The position numbers and the translations under genes are program-made. DNA of 50,156 nucleotides from a virus. The notes under the pieces were generated by a model. It ran no database searches. It saw nothing but the letters and a program-made list of their open reading frames with translations, and was not told the origin of the DNA. How positions within the stretch are numbered: position 1 is the first letter of the stretch; the number at the start of each line of letters is the position of its first letter. The stretch lies in the IMG/VR virus record IMGVR_UViG_3300045988_128743. The stretch is one strand, 5' to 3'. This document shows positions 1-50,156 of the stretch, piece by piece.

Positions 1-55
1 AAACGTTTTTGAATTTTCGGTAACTGCTCTATAAATCAATGATTAACAATGAATT
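1..55. repeat. 55-bp terminal direct repeat, copy 1 (identical to 50102-50156)
   Basis: aaacgtttttgaattttcggtaactgctctataaatcaatgattaacaatgaatt occurs at both window ends. The repeat cuts through the integrase start codon, which fits an assembly overlap of a circular molecule. Confidence 0.9.
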
Positions 56-3744: not shown

Positions 3745-4656
3745 ATGGATAATGAAATTATTGAAGTGAAGCAGGCGGAAATGCTTCAAGCTATTAACCG
3801 GGCAGAAGTTGACATTCAGATTGCAACAGCAAAACAGTACCCACGTGACATCAACGCATCGCTCAACAAAATTGCGACCTATGCAATGATGGATAAGGAA
3901 ACGGCAGAGGATTGTTTCTACGTTCTTCGCAGACAGGATGCAAACGGAAATTCTTCCGTTATTGAGGGATTATCAGTTCGCATGGCAGAGATTATCGCCG
4001 GGGCTTGGGGAAATCTCCGGGTACAGACCCGTATAATCGGCAACGATGGACGAATGATAACCGCACAGGCAATATGCCATGACCTCGAAACCAACTTTGC
4101 CGTGAGCAAGGAAGTGAAACGCCGTATCACGACCAAGAGCGGAAAGACTTACAGCGAAGATATGCAGGTTGTAACAGGGAACGCCGCTGCATCAATCGCT
4201 TTCAGGAACGCCGTTTTAGCTGTTATACCAAAAGCCATAACCAAACGAGTTATCAATGAGGTTAAACAGGTTGCTCTCGGACAGGCTATTGATGTAGAAA
4301 CAGCCCGTAAGAACTGTTTGGCAAACTTCGCCAAAGCAGGTGTGAATGAATCAATGATATGCCAATACCTCGGCATAAAATCAATCGCAGAAATTGATAA
4401 AGAACGCTTGTTTGAACTCCGGGCTACATGGAACGCTATCAGGGAGGGAACGACAACAGTACAGGAGACATTCATCCAACCAGCCATTGAAGCAAAGGCA
4501 CAGGCTGCAGCGGAAAAGAAATCAAACTCAGCACAGGAAAAGGCTGCGGCAGCTATCGCACAGGCGACAGGAGCAGTTCCGGCAAATGTTGACCCGGAAA
4601 CAGGCGAAATCAAGGAGGCACAGAACAATAAGAAATCATCAACCAATAAAAAGTAG
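3745..4656 (+). CDS. Putative single-strand annealing protein (RecT/Redbeta-like), function uncertain
   Basis: 303 aa in the same operon as a YqaJ-type exonuclease, with a low-complexity Ala/Lys-rich tail. I could not verify any diagnostic motif by eye. Confidence 0.35.
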   Translation: MDNEIIEVKQAEMLQAINRAEVDIQIATAKQYPRDINASLNKIATYAMMDKETAEDCFYVLRRQDANGNSSVIEGLSVRMAEIIAGAWGNLRVQTRIIGNDGRMITAQAICHDLETNFAVSKEVKRRITTKSGKTYSEDMQVVTGNAAASIAFRNAVLAVIPKAITKRVINEVKQVALGQAIDVETARKNCLANFAKAGVNESMICQYLGIKSIAEIDKERLFELRATWNAIREGTTTVQETFIQPAIEAKAQAAAEKKSNSAQEKAAAAIAQATGAVPANVDPETGEIKEAQNNKKSSTNKK

Positions 4657-4662
4657 GACATT

Positions 4663-5250
4663 ATGGAAATCAAAAAAGAAAACCTATTGAAAGCCCTTAA
4701 TACAGGCTCTGACAGCGTTAAAGAAACAATCCTCGCTATTTTCCCCGAGTTAAAAGAAGAAGCGGTACAGAAAGCCGACAAACGCCCTGTAACGGAACGT
4801 ATAAAGACATTTGAGGATGCTTGCGAAGTTCTCGGTAATAACCACCCGTTTATACAAGCGTACAAATGCTGGGAAAATGACGGAGTAAACAATCAGACAG
4901 ATATTGACGCATACTTGAAACTCCGTATCATCTGCGAAGCTCTTAACGAGGGATGGGAGCCAAAATTCACAGAGGACGAGTGGCGTTATTATCCTTGGTT
5001 CTACCTATACACGCAGCAGGAGCTTGACGATATGGATGATGATGAAAAACAGGAACGACACATGATAGATACAGGCGATTATGAAACCGAATCTTGCGGC
5101 TTCGGCTTTGCGTGTTCGTATAGCGTTCCCTCGAATACGACTGCGGCCGTCGGCTCTCGCCTTTGCTTGAAAAACAGCGAACTCGCCACGTACTGCGGCA
5201 AACAGTTTATAAGCATTTGGGCTGATTTCAACCTTGTACGCCGCCGATAA
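4663..5250 (+). CDS. Remote DGR target protein 2 (contains VR2), 195 aa
   Basis: The C-terminal segment ESCGFGFACSYSVPSNTTAAVGSRLCLK is encoded by a 75-bp copy of the TR that differs only at TR adenines. Confidence 0.8.
   Translation: MEIKKENLLKALNTGSDSVKETILAIFPELKEEAVQKADKRPVTERIKTFEDACEVLGNNHPFIQAYKCWENDGVNNQTDIDAYLKLRIICEALNEGWEPKFTEDEWRYYPWFYLYTQQELDDMDDDEKQERHMIDTGDYETESCGFGFACSYSVPSNTTAAVGSRLCLKNSELATYCGKQFISIWADFNLVRRR
5094..5168 (+). repeat. DGR variable region VR2
   Basis: Gapless alignment to TR 39794-39868 (offset 34,700). By hand count there are 11 mismatches, all at TR adenines (11 of 17). Confidence 0.85.
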
Positions 5251-5323: not shown

Positions 5324-5626
5324 ATGGAAACTAAAAGTGAATTTATTCAGAAAGTCGATGCAACTATCAGCGAGTTTCAAGCTGACATCCACAAATCAGA
5401 GGAAAGAAAAGCAGTTATAATCATTGCATCAGAGCCGTTACCGGGCAAAGACGGGAGCAGTCAAACCGGGGCAGCAATAGGCAACGAAACTGAGTTGGTT
5501 TTGGCTCTCGCAGGATTTATGCGACAACCTACCATAAATGATTTGATAAGAAAGGCTATGGCTTTGAATTTAGCTGCATCAATGGGAAGAATGTTTAACC
5601 AAAAGGAACAGGAGGACAACAAATGA
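5324..5626 (+). CDS. Hypothetical protein
   Basis: 100-aa ORF whose stop overlaps the start of the exonuclease gene by 4 nt. Confidence 0.5.
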   Translation: METKSEFIQKVDATISEFQADIHKSEERKAVIIIASEPLPGKDGSSQTGAAIGNETELVLALAGFMRQPTINDLIRKAMALNLAASMGRMFNQKEQEDNK

Positions 5627-6564
5627 GTAATACAATTATCAGACCGAAAGACCGTAACGAATGGCTTGAATTAAGAAAAGCAGGTATCGGAAGCAGTGAA
5701 GTAGCGACAATCGTAGGATTGAACCCTTGGGAAACACCGTATCAGTTATGGAGACGCAAATTAGGGCTTGACCCGGCTAAGGATGAAACCTTTGCAATGA
5801 AAGCAGGACACTATCTTGAAGATGCAGTAGCGCAGTTTTGGCATGACGCAACAGGCAACGAAATCATAAAAAGCTCTGCCGGGGATTGGCTCATTAAAGA
5901 CAATGACCGACCGTATTTACAGGTAAGCCCCGACCGTACATATTGGCTCGCAGGACGAACCAAGAACAACAGCAACAAGGGTATATTGGAATGCAAGACA
6001 ACCCAAAAACAAATAGACCCGGAAGATCTGCCGAAACACTGGTTCTGTCAGGTTCAATACCAACTCGGGGTTGCCGGGCTTGAGCAGGGTAGCCTTGCAT
6101 GGTTATGTTCCGGAAGAGAGTTTGGCTACAAAGACTTGAGTTTCGTTCCTGACTTTTACTCATGGCTTATTGAAGAAGTAGATAGATTTTGGACTGACAA
6201 TATCCTCGGTAAGCAAGAGCCATCCGCACAATCCGTACAGGACATTCTGTTAAAATACAACAGACACACGGACGGAAAATCAGTTGAGGTAAACGATGAA
6301 ATATTTGAAGCGTACAACGAGTTGAAAAGCCTTAAAGAGGAATTGGCTGGGCTTGACGAGCGTAAAACAGCCCTTGAAGAAAAGATTAAGATTTCATTCG
6401 GGGATGCGGAAGCTATCAGTTATGCCGGGCAGACAATCGCTACATGGAAAGCACCGAAACCGAGTGAAAAATTTGATGATAAGGCTTTCAAGGCTGCACA
6501 CCCAGACCTCGCGAAAGAGTTTACTAAGACAGTTCAAGGAGCAAGACGCTTCCTTTTGAAATAA
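5623..6564 (+). CDS. YqaJ-like viral recombinase-domain exonuclease (PD-(D/E)XK)
   Basis: 313 aa. The N-terminus WLELRKAGIGSSEVATIVGLNPWETPYQLWRRKLGL and the ECKT motif are typical of YqaJ/lambda-Exo-like nucleases. Confidence 0.8.
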   Translation: MSNTIIRPKDRNEWLELRKAGIGSSEVATIVGLNPWETPYQLWRRKLGLDPAKDETFAMKAGHYLEDAVAQFWHDATGNEIIKSSAGDWLIKDNDRPYLQVSPDRTYWLAGRTKNNSNKGILECKTTQKQIDPEDLPKHWFCQVQYQLGVAGLEQGSLAWLCSGREFGYKDLSFVPDFYSWLIEEVDRFWTDNILGKQEPSAQSVQDILLKYNRHTDGKSVEVNDEIFEAYNELKSLKEELAGLDERKTALEEKIKISFGDAEAISYAGQTIATWKAPKPSEKFDDKAFKAAHPDLAKEFTKTVQGARRFLLK

Positions 6565-14166: not shown

Positions 14167-15717
14167 ATGAAAACAGAAACGGTACACCTGTCGCAGATAC
14201 AGGTAAACGGGGCTAATCCCCGTATCATCAAGGATGACAAGTTTGCGAAGCTGATAAACTCCATACTTGCGCTGCCTAAAATGCTCGAACTCCGACCTAT
14301 CGTAGTGGATAACACAATGGTAGCCCTCGGAGGAAATATGCGTTACCGGGCATTATCTGCCATAGCCTCAATGACAGCGGACGAAATCCGGGACAGGCTT
14401 AACTCAATAAGGGATTTTCAAAAGAAAACAGAAGCCGAACAGCAGTTACTCATTCAGTTTTGGGAAAAGTGGAAAGACAGCCCGAATGCGCCTGTTATCA
14501 AGGCTTCCGAACTGACGGACGAGGAACAAAGAGAGTTTATCATCAAGGATAATGTTGGCTATGGAGAATGGGATATGGATGCACTCGCCAACGAATGGGA
14601 TAACGAAGACCTCGAAGATTGGGGTGTGGACGTATGGCAGGAAGACAGCAGTTCCACAGGAGGAAGCGGAACAGGCGAAAGCTGCCCGGCAAAAACCACT
14701 TTAAACGACCGCTTTGTTGTTCCTCCGTTCTCTATCCTCGACACCCGTAAAGGCTATTGGCAAGCCCGTAAAAAGGCGTGGCGAGAGCTTATCGGGGATA
14801 TGGGCGAAAGCCGTAACGATACGCTTATAACAAACCCCGAAATCAAGTACAAAGACCTGTATCAGAAGACACGGCAGCACAGGGAGGAACTCGGATTGAC
14901 ATTCAAGGAATACCTCGAAAAGTATGTGCCGGATGATGTGAAAGAACGTGAGGCGCAGAAAGTTCTATCAGCTGGAGTGTCATTGCTTGACCCTGTTATG
15001 GCTGAAATAGTCTGCCGATGGTTCGGCATGGAAAACTGCAAGACATTTGACTGCTTTGCCGGAGATAGCGTGTTCGGTTATGTATCGGCACATCTCGGAA
15101 ATGAATTTGTCGGAATAGAACTGCGTCCCGAACAGGCTCAACTCAACAATGAGCGTGTGGAGGGCATGAACGCCCGGTACATCTGTGATGACGGACAGAA
15201 CGTGGCACAGCATATCGAACCGGAAAGCCAAGACCTTCTGTTTAGCTGTCCCCCGTACTTCGACTTGGAAGTGTACAGCGACCTACCGAATGATGCAAGC
15301 AACCAAGGCAGTTACGAGGACTTTATAGCGATACTCCGAAACGCATTCTCGGCGGCTATCGGATGTCTGAAAGAAGACCGCTTCGCCGTGATTGTAGTAG
15401 GCGATGTTAGGGATAAGGCAACGGGCTGTTATTATGACTTCTGCGGCGACATCAAAAGGATATTCAAGGATAACGGAGTAAACCTGTATAATGAGATTAT
15501 CCTCATAGAAACGAGCGCAAGTACAGCCCTAAGAGCTTCCCGATACATGGAGAGCCGCAAGGTAGCCAAGATGCACCAAAATATCCTCGTGTTCTACAAA
15601 GGAAAAACCAAAAACATCAAAAACAATTTCAAAAAAATAGAGTATGCAAGCGAAGATTTGGAACTTTTCAGAGTGGATTCAGGAAACGAACCCACAGAAG
15701 ATACGGCAAATGTTTGA
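14167..15717 (+). CDS. ParB-like N-terminal domain fused to a SAM-dependent DNA methyltransferase-like domain
   Basis: 516 aa. It has a ParB-N-like segment HLSQIQVNGANPRII...LGGNMRYRA, SAM motif I (DCFAGDSVFG...GIELRPEQ), and motif IV as LLFSCPPY, which is atypically Cys rather than D/N/S. Confidence 0.75.
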   Translation: MKTETVHLSQIQVNGANPRIIKDDKFAKLINSILALPKMLELRPIVVDNTMVALGGNMRYRALSAIASMTADEIRDRLNSIRDFQKKTEAEQQLLIQFWEKWKDSPNAPVIKASELTDEEQREFIIKDNVGYGEWDMDALANEWDNEDLEDWGVDVWQEDSSSTGGSGTGESCPAKTTLNDRFVVPPFSILDTRKGYWQARKKAWRELIGDMGESRNDTLITNPEIKYKDLYQKTRQHREELGLTFKEYLEKYVPDDVKEREAQKVLSAGVSLLDPVMAEIVCRWFGMENCKTFDCFAGDSVFGYVSAHLGNEFVGIELRPEQAQLNNERVEGMNARYICDDGQNVAQHIEPESQDLLFSCPPYFDLEVYSDLPNDASNQGSYEDFIAILRNAFSAAIGCLKEDRFAVIVVGDVRDKATGCYYDFCGDIKRIFKDNGVNLYNEIILIETSASTALRASRYMESRKVAKMHQNILVFYKGKTKNIKNNFKKIEYASEDLELFRVDSGNEPTEDTANV

Positions 15718-37749: not shown

Positions 37750-37898
37750 TAGTTTCAATTTTCATATCGCTAAAGAAGCGATTGCGTTCATGGGCAAACG
37801 CCCGGAAGCAAAAGAAACTGAGGATGAATACCAAATCTTCGGTAATGTTCATTTCATCAAAAGGTAAAACAGTTTTCAAATTCTTAAACAATAAATGA
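37746..37898 (+). CDS. Possible 50-aa basic ORF bridging 37432-37749 and the DGR target
   Basis: It shows ATGA overlaps at both ends (37746-37749 and 37895-37898). Translation: MIVSIFISLKKRLRSWANARKQKKLRMNTKSSVMFISSKGKTVFKFLNNK. Confidence 0.3.
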   Translation: MIVSIFISLKKRLRSWANARKQKKLRMNTKSSVMFISSKGKTVFKFLNNK

Positions 37899-39343
37899 CT
37901 ATGGCACTGACAAGCGAAGAAGAAAGCAAGGTAAGACAAATTATCGAGGCTTTTGAGGGCGGCAAGCGATTGATTGACCTGCCCGAAGTTGAGGGAACAA
38001 ATCCCTTTGAATTGATATGTGAGGTTCTTGATACAGACGGGGAAAGTAAAAAGGCTGCTCTTGCAACATTGCTCCCGTATTTGGAGGAACAGTGTATGTA
38101 CGGAATTGAATATGACATAACGGTATCATCGCCGGATGTTACCCGTATAGGTAATATGGCTCTGCATAAGAGTTTGCCTATCCATAACCGTATGAAAGGA
38201 TGTTTATTGGCTGATGACGGGACAGTAAACGAATACCTTAACCCAAAAGACTGGCGAGGACAAACACGTGACGGCTCACGTGGGCAGGTCATGGTTGAAC
38301 TTCCTATGTATTATCGTAAATTTGAAACAGACGGAAACAAACGCCGTGTGAAATTATCGGAATATCCCCTGCCCGGCTATCATCAGGTTAAGAAAAAGTA
38401 TGTTTCAGCCTATGAAGCAACCGTACAGCGTTCTACAACAACGCTATGCTCAGTTGTAAACACAGATGCAGATTATAGAGGAGGAAATAATAATGCAGAA
38501 TGGGACGGAACATACCGTACGCTTACAGGAAGACCTGCGACACAGATTTCACGTACCAATTTTCGAAACTATGCCCGTAAACGTAAATCATCCACAAAGG
38601 AATGGAACTGTATGACATACGATATTCAGAAAGACCTCTTGTGGCTGTTTGTGGTTGAGTTTGCGACACTTAATTCGCAAAAGGCTGTTAATGCATCACT
38701 CACTGCAGAAGGTTACAGACAGGGCGGTCTTGGCGATGGTGTTTCAACTCTTGAAGGTGGAAAATGGAATACTTTCAACGGATATTATCCATTTATCCCT
38801 TGCGGATATACAGACGAACTTGGAAACGGTACAGGAGAGGTTGAATTTTCAATGCCGACCGAATACGATGCTAACATTAAGAAAGTCAAAGTTCCACGTT
38901 ATCGTGGTATTGAAAATCCTTTCGGTCATATTTGGCAATGGACGGACGGTATTAATGTACGAATCTCTCCAAACAGCCCGACAGGAGACGGATTGAGCAA
39001 GGTATTTGTTACTGATAACCCGGAATATTTCAATGACAGTAACTATAACAACATGTCCCATGTCGGAAATGAAGCCCGTACAGAGGCTTATGTTAAATCT
39101 GTCATCTTCGGAGAGGGAGGCGAAATAATGCCGGATGTAGTTGGAGGCGGTTCTACTACCTATTTCTGTGACTACCATTACACGAACATTCCAACATCTG
39201 AAACACTCCGTGGGATGCTGTTCGGCGGTGCTGCGAATGACGGTGCGGGTTGCGGCTTCGGCTCTGCGTATTCGTATTGCGTTCCCTCGCATACGTCTGC
39301 GACCTTCGGCTCTCGCCTTTGCTTTATCCCCGTAACAGCGTAA
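37895..39343 (+). CDS. DGR target protein 1 (C-type-lectin/FGE-like C-terminus with VR1), putative receptor-binding protein
   Basis: 482 aa. The C-terminus LFGGAANDGAGCGFGSAYSYCVPSHTSATFGSRLCF is encoded by VR1, and the gene lies in the tail module. Confidence 0.85.
   Translation: MTMALTSEEESKVRQIIEAFEGGKRLIDLPEVEGTNPFELICEVLDTDGESKKAALATLLPYLEEQCMYGIEYDITVSSPDVTRIGNMALHKSLPIHNRMKGCLLADDGTVNEYLNPKDWRGQTRDGSRGQVMVELPMYYRKFETDGNKRRVKLSEYPLPGYHQVKKKYVSAYEATVQRSTTTLCSVVNTDADYRGGNNNAEWDGTYRTLTGRPATQISRTNFRNYARKRKSSTKEWNCMTYDIQKDLLWLFVVEFATLNSQKAVNASLTAEGYRQGGLGDGVSTLEGGKWNTFNGYYPFIPCGYTDELGNGTGEVEFSMPTEYDANIKKVKVPRYRGIENPFGHIWQWTDGINVRISPNSPTGDGLSKVFVTDNPEYFNDSNYNNMSHVGNEARTEAYVKSVIFGEGGEIMPDVVGGGSTTYFCDYHYTNIPTSETLRGMLFGGAANDGAGCGFGSAYSYCVPSHTSATFGSRLCFIPVTA
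39216..39324 (+). repeat. DGR variable region VR1
   Basis: 109-bp gapless alignment to TR 39760-39868 (offset 544). By hand count there are 18 mismatches, all at TR adenines (18 of 26). Confidence 0.9.
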
Positions 39344-39380: not shown

Positions 39381-39731
39381 ATGGAAGAATTGGTTGATGA
39401 TGGCTCGTTGGATTTCTTGAAAATCCCTCGTGATGAAAATAACAGGAGTTTTAACTGCGATGAAACGACACAGTCAAAACTCGTAAATACGACATTTTGG
39501 GTTGTTGATTTTATAGAGGATGTCCCCTCCCGTTTTAGTAAAGCGAAAGGTGTAAAAGGACAGACACTTGTAAAAATAAAGACTAATAAAGACAGCCCGG
39601 AATCGGAAGCAAAGAAATTCTTCACGGGTTCAGCTGACATCTTGTATGTTTTGAAGAAGATTAAGGAAATGAATAAGTTTCCTCGCCGGGTAACACTAAG
39701 AGGAAACGGTAACAGATTTTATTTTGAATAA
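39381..39731 (+). CDS. DGR accessory-position ORF (not Avd-like)
   Basis: 116 aa between the target and TR, where Avd normally sits. The sequence looks beta-rich (TTFWVVDFIEDV, QTLVKIKT, RRVTLRGNGNRFYFE) rather than a basic four-helix bundle. Confidence 0.5.
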   Translation: MEELVDDGSLDFLKIPRDENNRSFNCDETTQSKLVNTTFWVVDFIEDVPSRFSKAKGVKGQTLVKIKTNKDSPESEAKKFFTGSADILYVLKKIKEMNKFPRRVTLRGNGNRFYFE

Positions 39732-39759
39732 ATGATACAGGTTGGTCGTTCTTGTGGGG

Positions 39760-39868
39760 TGCTGTTCAGCGGTAATGCGAATAACGGTGCGAATTGCGGC
39801 TTCGGCTATGCGAATTCGAATAACGTTCCCTCGAATACGAATGCGAACATCGGCTCTCACCTATGCTT
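39760..39868 (+). repeat. DGR template region (TR)
   Basis: Adenine-rich AAY-codon template (in-frame reading LFSGNANNGANCGFGYANSNNVPSNTNANIGSHLCL), 148 nt upstream of the RT gene. Confidence 0.9.
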
Positions 39869-40015
39869 AAAAATTGGTTCAAAGGAAAAGTATAAAACAA
39901 TACAAACGGAACGACGACCTTGCCTCTTGGCAAAAAATTTCAAGTAACCCTAAAAGTGTTGGTAGGAACGCCTGTTGTATGGGCTACCGAAGACTCTGAT
40001 TAAGAAAGCAAAGCT

Positions 40016-41047
40016 ATGAAGCGTATAGGAAGCTTATACGAAAAGATAATTTCTGTAGAGAACCTGCGGCTTGCCGATGAAAAGGCTCGCCGTGGGGAAA
40101 CTCGCACTTATGGTGTCCGGGTTCACGACAAGAACCGGGAAGCAAACATACAATCCCTGCATGAAGCGTTGAGGTTGAAAACATTCAGGACATCGCCTTA
40201 TGATGTATTCACGATTTATGAACCAAAGGAGCGTGTCATTTATCGTTTGCCGTACTATCCTGACAGAATAGTTCATCATGCGATTATGAATGTTCTTGAA
40301 CCTATATGGACGAAAGTATTTACCCACAATACGTTTTCCTGTATCAAAGGACGTGGTATTGAGGGATGTGCCCGGCACGTTGACAAGGTTATAAGAAAAT
40401 ACAAAGGGAAGCCCCTGTATTGCCTTAAAATAGACATCAAGAAATATTATCCGTCAATCAAGCATCATGTGCTTAAACGGATAATACGCAAAAAGATTAA
40501 GGACAAAGACCTTTTATGGCTTCTTGATGAAATCATAGACAGTGCCGAGGGTCTGCCTATCGGAAACTATCTGTCGCAATATTTGGCTAACTTGAACCTT
40601 GCCTACTTTATGCACAACGTAAACGAGGTTCTGAAAATAGACTGCGAGGAATATGCAGATGATATGACTTTTTACAGTGAAAGCAAGGAAACTTTATACA
40701 GCGCATTTCACGGGTTTATAAAGCCGTATATAGAAAATGAACTTGAATTGCAAGTAAAAGGCAATTATCAAATATTTCCGATAGCAGAAAACAAATATGA
40801 CAAGCACGGACGGGCTTTGGACTATGTCGGGTACAAATTCTACAGAAAACAGAAACTAATGCGAAAGAGCATAAAGAAAAACTTTTGCCGTACTGCATCC
40901 CGGCTCAACAAACAGCAGCCACCACTTGATGTAATGGCATACAAACAGGCGGTAGCCCCTTGGTTGGGATGGGCACAGCACAGCAATAGCAAAAACTTAT
41001 TACGAACAATCATTAAAAAAGAGTATTATGAAACGTGCATTTTATGA
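40016..41047 (+). CDS. DGR reverse transcriptase
   Basis: 343 aa. It has RT motifs including the DGR-type motif 4 LPIGNYLSQ, the YADD catalytic box (EYADDMTFY), and the thumb-proximal LDYVGYKF. Confidence 0.9.
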   Translation: MKRIGSLYEKIISVENLRLADEKARRGETRTYGVRVHDKNREANIQSLHEALRLKTFRTSPYDVFTIYEPKERVIYRLPYYPDRIVHHAIMNVLEPIWTKVFTHNTFSCIKGRGIEGCARHVDKVIRKYKGKPLYCLKIDIKKYYPSIKHHVLKRIIRKKIKDKDLLWLLDEIIDSAEGLPIGNYLSQYLANLNLAYFMHNVNEVLKIDCEEYADDMTFYSESKETLYSAFHGFIKPYIENELELQVKGNYQIFPIAENKYDKHGRALDYVGYKFYRKQKLMRKSIKKNFCRTASRLNKQQPPLDVMAYKQAVAPWLGWAQHSNSKNLLRTIIKKEYYETCIL

Positions 41048-50101: not shown

Positions 50102-50156
50102 AAACGTTTTTGAATTTTCGGTAACTGCTCTATAAATCAATGATTAACAATGAATT
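50102..50156. repeat. 55-bp terminal direct repeat, copy 2
   Basis: Identical to positions 1-55. Confidence 0.9.

What the first reader, a model, noticed from the sequence alone, without database searches (positions are those of the whole stretch)
4663..5250. Second, remote DGR variable region inside a small early-operon ORF
Positions 5094-5168 align without gaps to TR 39794-39868 (75 bp, constant offset 34,700). By hand count there are 11 mismatches, and every one falls on a TR adenine (11 of 17 adenines). Homology breaks at a non-adenine mismatch at 5091.

The reading frame relative to TR is the same as in VR1. TR reads CGFGYANSNNVPSNTNANIGSHLCLK and VR2 reads CGFGFACSYSVPSNTTAAVGSRLCLK.

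Three things are unusual:
- The host ORF is only 195 aa and lies between an SSAP-like gene and a YqaJ exonuclease in the rightward early/recombination operon. That is about 34.7 kb from TR (about 15.4 kb the other way round the circle), not in the virion module.
- The VR is followed by 27 more codons instead of ending the protein.
- Only the 3' two-thirds of TR is used, so the 5' boundary of homing differs from VR1.

Phage DGR targets are normally tail or receptor-binding proteins next to the RT. A hypervariable, presumably intracellular, early protein would suggest diversification of a host-factor or anti-defence binder.
Basis: partly seen in the sequence, partly recalled or inferred. Interest (0 to 1): 0.85.

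Follow-up and report, generated by a model that had tools for sequence, protein, structure and literature searches.

The report
Second, remote DGR target in phage
A gut Bacteroidales phage uses one mutagenic reverse-transcriptase system to diversify both a tail protein and, about 15 kb away round the circle, a small acidic protein encoded among its recombination genes; the second target is real and active but belongs to a family already reported in 2021, and its function is still unknown.

Summary
Window 5092-5173 is a true second variable region (VR2) of the DGR at 37.9-41.0 kb. All 58 non-adenine template positions are identical, and 11 of 17 template adenines differ.

VR2 is active, not a fossil. 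Among 25 near-identical 195-aa homologues there are 24 different VR peptides. Variation sits on codons that hold adenine in the template.

The host gene (4663-5250, PHROG 11581) lies in the rightward recombination/replication block, between an SSAP-slot gene and a YqaJ exonuclease. It encodes an acidic protein with no signal peptide.

The finding is not unprecedented. The protein is a full-length homologue of the distal, non-structural second DGR target of Quimbyvirus/LoVEphage (Benler 2021; Dahlman 2025). I confirmed VRs in LoVEphage and in the isolate phage Versailles.

New here:
- The family is large (about 1,800 clusters at 50% identity).
- 72% of 134 loci place it beside phage SSAP/exonuclease genes, in three non-orthologous module types.
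- In this clade VR2 uses only the 3' two-thirds of the template.
- The gene carries a second, non-DGR mosaic cassette (4821-4940).

No C-type lectin fold or function could be shown. Interest is moderate.

The parts
4663..5250 (+). Second DGR target gene: 195-aa acidic (pI 4.66) soluble protein of family PHROG 11581
   Evidence: PHROG 11581 E 1.2e-67 over the full length, no Pfam hit. 6,750 homologues and 1,814 50%-identity clusters. No hydrophobic segment.
5092..5162 (+). VR2 mutable segment, matching TR 39792-39862
   Evidence: All mismatches to TR fall at TR adenines. Among four near-identical genomes, 15 of 16 variable columns are at TR-A positions. Entropy peaks of 2.2-3.4 bits fall at codons 149, 151, 153, 154, 158, 160 and 162.
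5152..5173 (+). 3' end of VR2 with an IMH-like fixed difference from TR (GGCTCTCGCCTTTGCTT against TR GGCTCTCACCTATGCTT)
   Evidence: T at 5163 (TR A at 39863) is the same in every VR1 and VR2 examined. Relatives whose TR ends CACCTCTGATT still have VR ...CGCCTTTGCTT.
4821..4940 (+). Second, non-DGR divergent (mosaic) cassette inside the target gene, codons about 54-93
   Evidence: Identity to L001/L002 is low here, with a 15-nt indel. About 10-60% of columns match per 30-column block across 4821-4895, rising to about 70-85% by 4940. Flanking DNA is 97-100% identical. There are at least six alleles among otherwise near-identical proteins.
3745..4656 (+). Upstream neighbour, PHROG 3657 (unknown function), in the SSAP slot of the recombination module
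   Evidence: Conserved immediately upstream in 63/80 IMG/VR loci. Replaced by a Pfam RecT gene in L063. No family or PDB match of its own.
5623..6564 (+). YqaJ/RecE-like recombination exonuclease
   Evidence: Pfam YqaJ E 1e-21 and PHROG 434 E 1e-82.
37895..39343 (+). First DGR target (482 aa, PHROG 5302 'tail protein'); VR1 at about 39210-39324
   Evidence: PHROG 5302 E 4e-139. The VR1-TR alignment has A-directed mismatches, and VR1 differs among relatives with an identical TR.
39381..39731 (+). Accessory gene in the Avd position (116 aa, pI 9.0)
   Evidence: Lies between the target and TR. PHROG 19665 E 2e-39, with no Avd family match.
39753..39873 (+). Template repeat (TR); VR2 uses only 39792-39873
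   Evidence: Three-way alignment. TR is identical in L081 and L082. Adenines fall 9/9/0 on codon positions 1/2/3.
40016..41047 (+). DGR reverse transcriptase
   Evidence: Pfam RVT_1 E 5e-15 and PHROG 1423 E 7e-106. Carries the IGNYLSQ and YADD motifs.

Best explanation
The window is a circular 50.1-kb temperate Bacteroidales phage. It has one DGR cassette in the order target 1, accessory gene, TR, RT. The RT copies TR RNA with errors at adenines, and the cDNA replaces two variable regions that share the same 3' recognition end (GGCTCTCGCC-TTTGCTT).

VR1 lies in a tail-module protein beside the cassette. VR2 lies 15.4 kb away round the circle (34.7 kb in window coordinates), in gene 4663-5250. 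In VR2 only the 3' ~78 nt of the ~117-nt template are homologous, so cDNA integration must resolve within the 13-14 nt TTGCGGCTTCGGCT stretch. About ten codons (149-163, weakly 144 and 166) are rewritten. By the genetic code this allows roughly 10^9-10^10 peptides.

The product is a soluble, acidic, probably cytoplasmic protein. It is made together with the phage's recombination and replication genes after the lysis-lysogeny switch. Its variable hairpin most likely serves as an adaptable binding surface for a variable intracellular partner, such as a host defence or nuclease component or a competitor's protein. In that sense it would be a hypervariable counter-defence or conflict protein.

Shown:
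- VR2 belongs to this DGR.
- VR2 is diversified at the population level.
- Homology to the Quimbyvirus/LoVEphage second target.
- Conserved placement beside recombination genes.

Inferred:
- Expression timing.
- Cytoplasmic location.
- The binding role and the identity of the partner.
For: VR2 identity:
- 58/58 non-A positions are identical and 11/17 A positions differ. It is one of only three matches in the window.
- The reading frame is the same as VR1. TR adenines fall only on codon positions 1 and 2 (9/9/0).
- The RT carries IGNYLSQ and YADD.

Activity:
- Homologues 94-96% identical differ almost only at VR codons.
- There are 24 distinct VR peptides in 25 sequences. AAY codons show 7-11 different residues.
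- At codons 149 (F/S/Y/C) and 163 (V/I/F/L) the residues seen are exactly the four reachable by A substitution. At 166 R/H are two of the four reachable, with L also seen in L002. At 159, T and A are reachable and a single M is not.
- At nucleotide level 15 of 16 variable VR columns are TR-A sites. Flanking DNA shows 2.6% biallelic SNPs.
- TR is identical in relatives whose VR1 and VR2 both differ.

Conservation of the architecture:
- In 11 IMG/VR contigs holding both genes, the target homologue matches that contig's own DGR repeat. Nine give full-length VR-TR alignments with at most one non-A mismatch.
- LoVEphage: 113 bp, 19/26 A mismatches, 0 other.
- Versailles: 107 bp, 14/22 A mismatches, 0 other.

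Non-structural context:
- The gene order is integrase, three leftward repressor-like genes, then a rightward block of HTH, SSAP-slot gene, target, YqaJ, helicase, replication initiator and primase-helicase.
- There is a 6-bp gap to the upstream gene and no + strand terminator-like site before 6909.
- 97 of 134 loci have SSAP and/or exonuclease homologues nearby, in three non-orthologous module types.

Protein properties:
- pI 4.66 and no hydrophobic segment.
- A second divergent cassette inside the gene suggests strong diversifying pressure.
- An identical copy of the upstream neighbour protein recurs on 79-150 contigs. Any single target variant recurs on at most 11.
Against: - There is no direct evidence on expression timing, location or binding partner.
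- No known anti-defence, defence or ligand-binding domain was detected.
- The AF2 models are only moderate (pLDDT 70-72) and are poor across the VR. Foldseek finds no PDB neighbour, so even the C-type lectin fold expected of DGR targets is unconfirmed.
- Phage DGR targets characterised to date are receptor-binding proteins. A small virion-associated adhesin encoded outside the structural module cannot be excluded.
- A 2026 cohort study found no DGR targeting a known anti-defence protein (10.64898/2026.03.05.709809).
- No hairpin or cruciform lies downstream of either VR.
Confidence: 0.6

Rival explanations
1. The 195-aa protein is a virion-associated or secreted adhesin or receptor-binding accessory. 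It merely happens to be encoded in the early region, and its diversification serves host range as VR1 does.
For: The VR segment is shared with the tail-module target (33% identity over 97 aa, mostly the VR). HHpred-based annotation calls the Versailles homologue a 'tail protein'. Experimentally characterised phage DGR targets are receptor binders (PMC8144416).
Against: In at least four unrelated phage backbones the gene sits among recombination/replication genes, not structural genes. It has no signal peptide, hydrophobic segment or recognisable virion-attachment domain. The 'tail' label is explained by the shared TR-derived VR (PHROG 5302 matches residues 141-172 only).
Confidence: 0.15
2. 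The protein is a prophage-encoded defence or superinfection-exclusion sensor. A hypervariable binder would recognise incoming competitor phages, by analogy with DGR-diversified putative antigen sensors in multicellular bacteria.
For: These are temperate phages, integrated in Bacteroidales chromosomes. DGR-diversified conflict sensors exist in cellular genomes (PMC10907252, listed). The gene shows strong diversifying signals.
Against: The gene lies in the rightward lytic block downstream of the repressor/switch region and is tightly coupled to the SSAP-slot gene, so it is unlikely to be expressed in lysogens. No effector domain is fused or consistently adjacent. There is no PADLOC match.
Confidence: 0.12
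3. The protein is a component or regulator of the phage recombination machinery itself, for example a mediator acting with the SSAP/exonuclease, conceivably even helping cDNA integration. The VR would tune an interaction with DNA ends or host recombination proteins.
For: The gene is consistently adjacent to three non-orthologous SSAP/exonuclease module types. It carries an acidic patch, ELDDMDDDEKQE.
Against: There is no homology to any recombination mediator. A housekeeping recombination factor would not be expected to tolerate about 10^9 variants of a surface hairpin. In LoVEphage the gene lies 8-10 kb from exo/RecT.
Confidence: 0.06
4. VR2 is a fossil or chance similarity: a past homing event or duplication that is no longer targeted.
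For: VR2 is shorter than VR1 and lacks 5' homology. No downstream hairpin was found.
Against: There are 24 distinct VR peptides among 25 near-identical proteins. Variation is restricted to TR-A sites, and the TR is identical across relatives. The IMH-like 3' end is intact and conserved.
Confidence: 0.02

Closest known systems
Second (distal) DGR target of Quimbyvirus / LoVEphage (ORF 80/84 of Benler et al. 2021, PMC8008677; QVQ57199.1 in MW660583)
   Same: It is a full-length homologue (about 35% identity, tblastn E 1e-22 to 1e-26; same PHROG 11581) and about 194 aa long. The VR lies near the C-terminus and is followed by about 25-30 residues. The gene is far from the RT cassette, among DNA-metabolism genes, on a phage that also diversifies a tail-module protein.
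   Different: The phage backbone is different: 50 kb against 71-75 kb, TerL at most 30% identical and RT at most 50% identical to any GenBank phage. VR2 covers only the 3' ~78 nt of TR, against 113 nt in LoVEphage. The gene sits directly between the SSAP-slot and YqaJ genes, not in the methyltransferase/RtcB island. The RT is a single ORF, not frameshifted.
Gut prophages with a second distal VR noted by Dahlman et al. 2025 (PMC12629997, Extended Data Fig. 3c)
   Same: These are temperate Bacteroidota phages with one RT cassette and a remote second VR in a non-structural region near counter-defence-type genes.
   Different: That paper gives one sentence and a figure, with no protein family, synteny or activity analysis. 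I could not tell whether this lineage is among its four species. No INPHARED record matches the window at DNA level.
Bordetella phage BPP-1 DGR (Mtd/Avd/TR/Brt), the reference system
   Same: It shares adenine-specific mutagenesis, AAY-rich TR codons, cassette order (target, accessory, TR, RT), a 3' VR end that differs from TR at fixed positions, and a tail-module primary target.
   Different: BPP-1 has a single adjacent target. Here there is a second trans target 15-35 kb away in a non-structural gene. No downstream cruciform was detectable. The accessory protein has no detectable Avd homology.
Cellular DGRs with multiple or remote targets (Treponema, Legionella; PMC4891356, PMC5758913)
   Same: One TR services several VRs located far from the RT (papers listed).
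   Different: Those targets are surface or secreted lipoproteins of bacteria. This target is a phage-encoded, apparently cytoplasmic protein.
Tentaclins (PMC10743442)
   Same: They are second DGR targets in gut phages.
   Different: Tentaclins have an N-terminal C-type lectin domain followed by Ig domains and are proposed adhesins. This family has an N-terminal helical region, a C-terminal VR and no Ig domain.

Membership tests
Diversity-generating retroelement (DGR) | Reverse transcriptase of the DGR type, with the [I/L/V]GxxxSQ motif and YxDD | tested here: met
   RVT_1 E 5e-15 and PHROG 1423 E 7e-106. IGNYLSQ at about residue 183 and YADD at 213.
Diversity-generating retroelement (DGR) | TR/VR repeat whose differences fall almost only on TR adenines | tested here: met
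   VR2 has 11/11 mismatches at A and 58/58 non-A positions identical. VR1 shows the same pattern, apart from two non-A differences at its 5' edge.
Diversity-generating retroelement (DGR) | Ongoing diversification of the VR while TR stays constant | tested here: met
   TR is identical in the window, L081 and L082, while VR1 and VR2 all differ. There are 24 VR peptides in 25 near-identical proteins. 15 of 16 variable VR columns are at TR-A sites. This is population-level evidence only; within-host turnover was not tested.
Diversity-generating retroelement (DGR) | IMH at the VR 3' end, differing from IMH* in TR at fixed positions | tested here: inconclusive
   There is a G+C-rich GGCTCTCGCC followed by TTTGCTT. 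T at 5163 / 39319 against TR A at 39863 is invariant in all VRs. Relatives with TR ...CACCTCTGATT keep VR ...CGCCTTTGCTT. The sequence pattern fits, but function was not tested.
Diversity-generating retroelement (DGR) | Accessory variability determinant (Avd) gene | tested here: inconclusive
   A basic 116-aa ORF occupies the expected position (39381-39731), but no Pfam or NCBIfam Avd match was found. It hits only PHROG 19665, of unknown function.
Diversity-generating retroelement (DGR) | Hairpin/cruciform just downstream of the VR (a BPP-1-type enhancer, not universal) | tested here: not met
   No inverted repeat was found, and folding is no better than shuffled sequence downstream of VR1 or VR2.
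C-type lectin / FGE / DUF1566 fold of DGR variable proteins | VR displayed on a C-type lectin-fold domain detectable by profile or structure | tested here: inconclusive
   - No Pfam hit in the window protein or in 150 family representatives.
- No PDB sequence hit.
- The AF2 models are mostly helical, with a low-confidence hairpin over the VR (pLDDT 70-72).
- Foldseek against PDB finds nothing with E below 3.
- hhalign against a DUF1566 protein gives no similarity.
- Benler et al. report C-type lectin domains for the Quimbyvirus homologue by HHpred, which I could not reproduce with these tools.
PHROG 11581 / Quimbyvirus-type distal DGR target | Full-length sequence homology | tested here: met
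   PHROG 11581 E 1.2e-67 over residues 1-193. tblastn to LoVEphage covers 99% at E 1e-22 to 1e-26.
PHROG 11581 / Quimbyvirus-type distal DGR target | The homologue is itself a VR of its phage's DGR and is encoded away from the RT in a non-structural region | tested here: met
   LoVEphage: 113 bp, 19/26 A mismatches, 0 other. Versailles: 107 bp, 14/22, 0 other. Nine clean pairs in IMG/VR.
Tentaclins | N-terminal C-type lectin domain followed by Ig-like domains | tested here: not met
   The VR is C-terminal and there are no Ig domains.
Known anti-defence or defence protein families | Profile match to a described family | tested here: not met
   No PADLOC, Pfam or NCBIfam match. One of 150 representatives has a marginal Tad2-like hit (E 1e-3), which is compatible with chance.

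The most novel reading that the evidence does not exclude
PHROG 11581 proteins would be a widespread class of DGR-programmed intracellular binders of Bacteroidales phages. They would be built on a scaffold that is not a recognisable C-type lectin fold and would be functionally tied to the phage recombination module. For example, they could act as an evolvable inhibitor or decoy for host nucleases or immune sensors that attack or detect recombination and replication intermediates. The DGR would then drive not only host-range switching but also an 'adaptive' counter-defence arm inside the cell.
Probability: 0.3. Interest if true: 0.85.

Novelty: new member of a known kind. Interest (0 to 1): 0.5.

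Why it matters
DGRs are the only known natural system of targeted protein hypermutation in prokaryotes. In phages they are understood almost entirely as tools for changing receptor specificity. A very common family of small, non-structural, hypervariable phage proteins implies a second, unexplored use of DGRs inside the infected cell.

This analysis links the window's gene to the previously noted Quimbyvirus/LoVEphage target. It shows that the family is large and actively diversified, and that it sits beside recombination genes in most loci and in several unrelated phage backbones. It also shows the family is present in cultured, inducible phages: Versailles in the B. caecimuris host of the OMM12 mouse model, plus BI-TP1, PV4-TP1 and BT-TP2. 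The function can therefore now be tested genetically.

Tried and rejected
- **Fold assignment.** I ran two AF2 predictions (121- and 129-sequence alignments; pLDDT 69.9 and 71.9). Foldseek against PDB gave nothing, and BFVD returned only uncharacterised gut-phage proteins. PDB profile searches gave nothing. Pfam on 150 family representatives and on 10 longer members showed no informative or fused domains. hhalign against a DUF1566 protein gave nothing.
- **BPP-1-like hairpin downstream of the VRs.** Absent.
- **PADLOC/defence models.** None matched.
- **Identifying the SSAP-slot protein.** No Pfam, NCBIfam or PDB match and no source annotation.
- **Close GenBank relative of the phage.** None found.
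- **VR1-to-VR2 gene conversion.** By eye on the alignment, 7 of the 11 positions where both VRs differ from TR carry the same base. Two of the seven lie at the VR 3' end (39859, nearly fixed as G, and 39863, the invariant IMH-type T). The remainder (5 of 9) does not look clearly above chance, and no statistical test was run. Relatives do not share these bases, so I rejected this as evidence.
- **A third VR in the window.** None found.
- **L030 neighbour.** I asked whether the adjacent DUF1566 gene in L030 is another VR of the same TR. No shared repeat was found.
- **Tentaclin identity.** Rejected on domain architecture.
- **Cluster sizes.** The 14,127 and 37,449 members of the LoVEphage-type clusters are suggestive of hypervariability. 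I did not rely on them, because cluster granularity in that table is uneven.

Full report
**1. The observation**

Window 5094-5168 aligns without gaps to 39794-39868. There are 11 mismatches, all at template adenines (11 of 17 A), and all 58 non-adenine positions are identical. Scanning both strands for this template segment finds only the template itself, VR1 at 39250 and this site.

Positions 5092-5093 and 5169 are further adenine mismatches, and 5091 is the first non-adenine break. The quoted peptide translations are right. In the VR2 reading frame, template adenines fall 9, 9 and 0 times on codon positions 1, 2 and 3, which is the classic AAY design. The window's ends overlap by 55 bp, so the genome is a 50,101-bp circle.

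**2. The DGR**

The cassette has the usual order:
- Target 1 is 37895-39343 (PHROG 5302 'tail protein', E 4e-139), with VR1 at about 39210-39324.
- A basic 116-aa accessory ORF lies at 39381-39731.
- TR lies at about 39753-39873.
- The RT is 40016-41047 (RVT_1; PHROG 1423), with IGNYLSQ and YADD.

Both VRs end in GGCTCTCGCCTTTGCTT, where TR has GGCTCTCACCTATGCTT. The A-to-T difference at TR 39863 is invariant in every VR1 and VR2 I examined. Relatives whose TR ends ...CACCTCTGATT still have ...CGCCTTTGCTT in the VR. This behaves like an IMH/IMH* boundary rather than mutagenesis. No hairpin follows either VR.

**3. VR2 is active**

- The 94-96% identical homologues differ almost only in the VR.
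- Column entropy is 2.2-3.4 bits at residues 149, 151, 153, 154, 158, 160 and 162 (TR codons TAT/AAT/AAC). It is zero at the interleaved GCG/TCG/CCC/GGC codons.
- In 25 near-identical 195-aa sequences there are 24 different VR peptides.
- The residues seen at codons 149 (F/S/Y/C) and 163 (V/I/F/L) are exactly the four reachable by adenine substitution. At 166, R and H are two of the four reachable, and L occurs in L002.
- At DNA level I compared four near-identical genomes. Of 16 variable columns in 5092-5169, 15 are at TR-A sites and are multi-allelic. The flanking 2.7 kb shows 2.6% ordinary biallelic SNPs.
- TR is identical in the window and two relatives, while both VR1 and VR2 differ.

The 'fossil' alternative is therefore rejected.

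**4. The host gene and its surroundings**

The 195-aa product matches PHROG 11581 (unknown function) over its full length and matches nothing in Pfam, NCBIfam, PADLOC or PDB. It is acidic (pI 4.66) and has no hydrophobic segment or signal peptide.

The gene map is that of a temperate phage:
- an integrase;
- three leftward repressor-like genes;
- a rightward block of small genes, then HTH_17, a PHROG 3657 gene, the target, a 100-aa ORF, YqaJ exonuclease, helicase, O-like initiator and primase-helicase;
- later a ParB-methyltransferase, followed by the packaging genes.

The target starts 6 bp after the upstream gene. No + strand terminator-like site occurs before 6909 (weak evidence).

**5. Relatives**

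The family is large: 6,750 hits in the 90% collection, and 1,814 50%-identity clusters at E no greater than 1e-3. The conserved core is residues about 40-190. It occurs in prophages of Prevotella, Bacteroides, Phocaeicola, Muribaculaceae and other Bacteroidales.

In 63 of 80 IMG/VR loci the order PHROG 3657, target, YqaJ, helicase, primase is kept. In L001 and L002 the neighbours are 96-100% identical, while the target is only 83% and 77% identical. In L063 a true RecT replaces the PHROG 3657 gene in the same slot, which supports calling it an SSAP analogue. In L072, and in many genome loci, the gene follows a RecT and MBL-nuclease pair. Phage Versailles has the fuller order SbcC-like, RecT, MBL nuclease and NinB.

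Overall, 97 of 134 loci have an SSAP and/or exonuclease homologue in the flank, across three non-orthologous module types. An identical copy of the upstream neighbour protein recurs on 79-150 contigs. Any one target variant recurs on at most 11.

**6. What was already known**

Benler et al. 2021 (PMC8008677) described two variable repeats in Quimbyvirus. The second lies in a distal, apparently non-structural ORF amid methyltransferases, a MutY-like nuclease and an RNA ligase. They proposed a role in phage-host conflict. Dahlman et al. 2025 (PMC12629997) noted four prophage species with a distal second VR near counter-defence genes.

LoVEphage MW660583 shows the same neighbourhood. Its 194-aa protein QVQ57199.1 is a full-length homologue of the window protein and carries a 113-bp VR with 19/26 A mismatches and no others. 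The isolate phage Versailles has the same arrangement (107 bp, 14/22, 0 other), with its homologue mis-annotated as 'tail protein'. In 11 IMG/VR contigs that hold both genes, the target homologue matches that contig's DGR repeat. Nine of these are clean full-length VR-TR alignments.

The window's phage itself has no close GenBank relative: TerL is at most 30% identical, RT at most 50%, and there is no megablast hit.

**7. What differs here**

- In this clade VR2 uses only the 3' ~78 nt of a ~117-nt template, so the 5' junction must resolve within 13-14 nt of homology.
- The gene sits inside the recombination module rather than in a methyltransferase island.
- The gene also holds a sharply bounded, non-adenine-directed divergent cassette (4821-4940, codons about 54-93), with at least six alleles among otherwise near-identical genes.

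**8. Fold and function**

Two AF2 models (pLDDT 70-72) give a confident helical N-terminal half and a low-confidence hairpin over the VR. Foldseek finds no PDB neighbour, and in BFVD it finds only uncharacterised gut-phage proteins. I could not reproduce the C-type lectin assignment reported for the Quimbyvirus homologue.

Function therefore rests on inference. The product appears to be a soluble protein, co-encoded with early recombination/replication genes and under two kinds of diversifying pressure. It is most plausibly an adaptable intracellular binder used in conflict with host or competitor factors. A virion-accessory role, a prophage defence role and a recombination-mediator role remain possible at lower probability.

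**9. Verdict**

It is a new member of a kind described in 2021, with some new comparative detail and an unresolved function. Interest is moderate (0.5). It would be high only if the intracellular counter-defence reading were shown.

Noticed in passing
window 4821-4940: Inside the VR2 host gene there is a second, sharply bounded divergent cassette (codons about 54-93). It has a 15-nt indel, and only about 10-60% of columns match L001/L002 per 30-column block across 4821-4895. It is not adenine-directed, and flanking DNA is 97-100% identical. At least six alleles exist among otherwise near-identical proteins.
   Followed up: partly
window 1-55 and 50102-50156: There is an exact 55-bp terminal overlap. 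The window is therefore a circularly assembled genome of 50,101 bp.
   Followed up: yes
window 3745-4656; L063 3911-4945: The PHROG 3657 protein has no detectable family. It occupies the slot taken by a true RecT in L063, next to the same YqaJ exonuclease, so it may be an unrecognised SSAP family.
   Followed up: partly
L169 5944-6525 (Bacteroides phage Versailles ON453897, 10181-10762): WAK79127.1, annotated 'tail protein', is a homologue of the window protein. It lies after SbcC-like, RecT-like, MBL and NinB genes and carries a 107-bp VR matching the TR next to the RT about 43 kb away. The papers that mention this phage contain no occurrence of 'DGR'.
   Followed up: yes
L030 9935-9986 and 10593-10644; L030 8098-8697: A 52-nt direct repeat (88% identical) brackets the target homologue. 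It duplicates the 5' end of the downstream gene, as if the target gene had been inserted as a cassette. A DUF1566/Lcl_C protein (E 4e-7) is encoded 1.3 kb upstream but shares no VR-like repeat with the target.
   Followed up: partly
window 5324-5626: The 100-aa ORF between the target and YqaJ is present in only 20 of 80 related IMG/VR loci. It has no family match.
   Followed up: no
window 14167-15717; L167 14299-14826: The window encodes a ParB-like/DNA methyltransferase fusion (PHROG 498, E 1e-124). Relative L167 has an HNH/NUMOD4 homing-endonuclease gene inserted just upstream of the equivalent gene, which the window lacks.
   Followed up: no
window 39920-39933: A short perfect hairpin (TTGCC-TCTT-GGCAA) lies between TR and the RT start. 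It may be part of the DGR RNA spacer structure.
   Followed up: no
P0127, P0129 (LoVEphage-type homologues): Single 90%-identity clusters of the LoVEphage second target hold 14,127 and 37,449 distinct member sequences. This suggests very extensive natural diversification of that protein.
   Followed up: no
alignment A4 (150 family representatives): One member gives a marginal Pfam hit to the Tad2-like (Thoeris anti-defence 2) domain, E 1e-3. This is compatible with chance across 150 scans, and the member was not identified.
   Followed up: no
L168 1-297 (Bacteroides phage BT-TP2 PQ571279): The homologue of the target gene is split across the start of this linear record and is unannotated. Its second DGR target would therefore be missed in that deposit.
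   Followed up: partly
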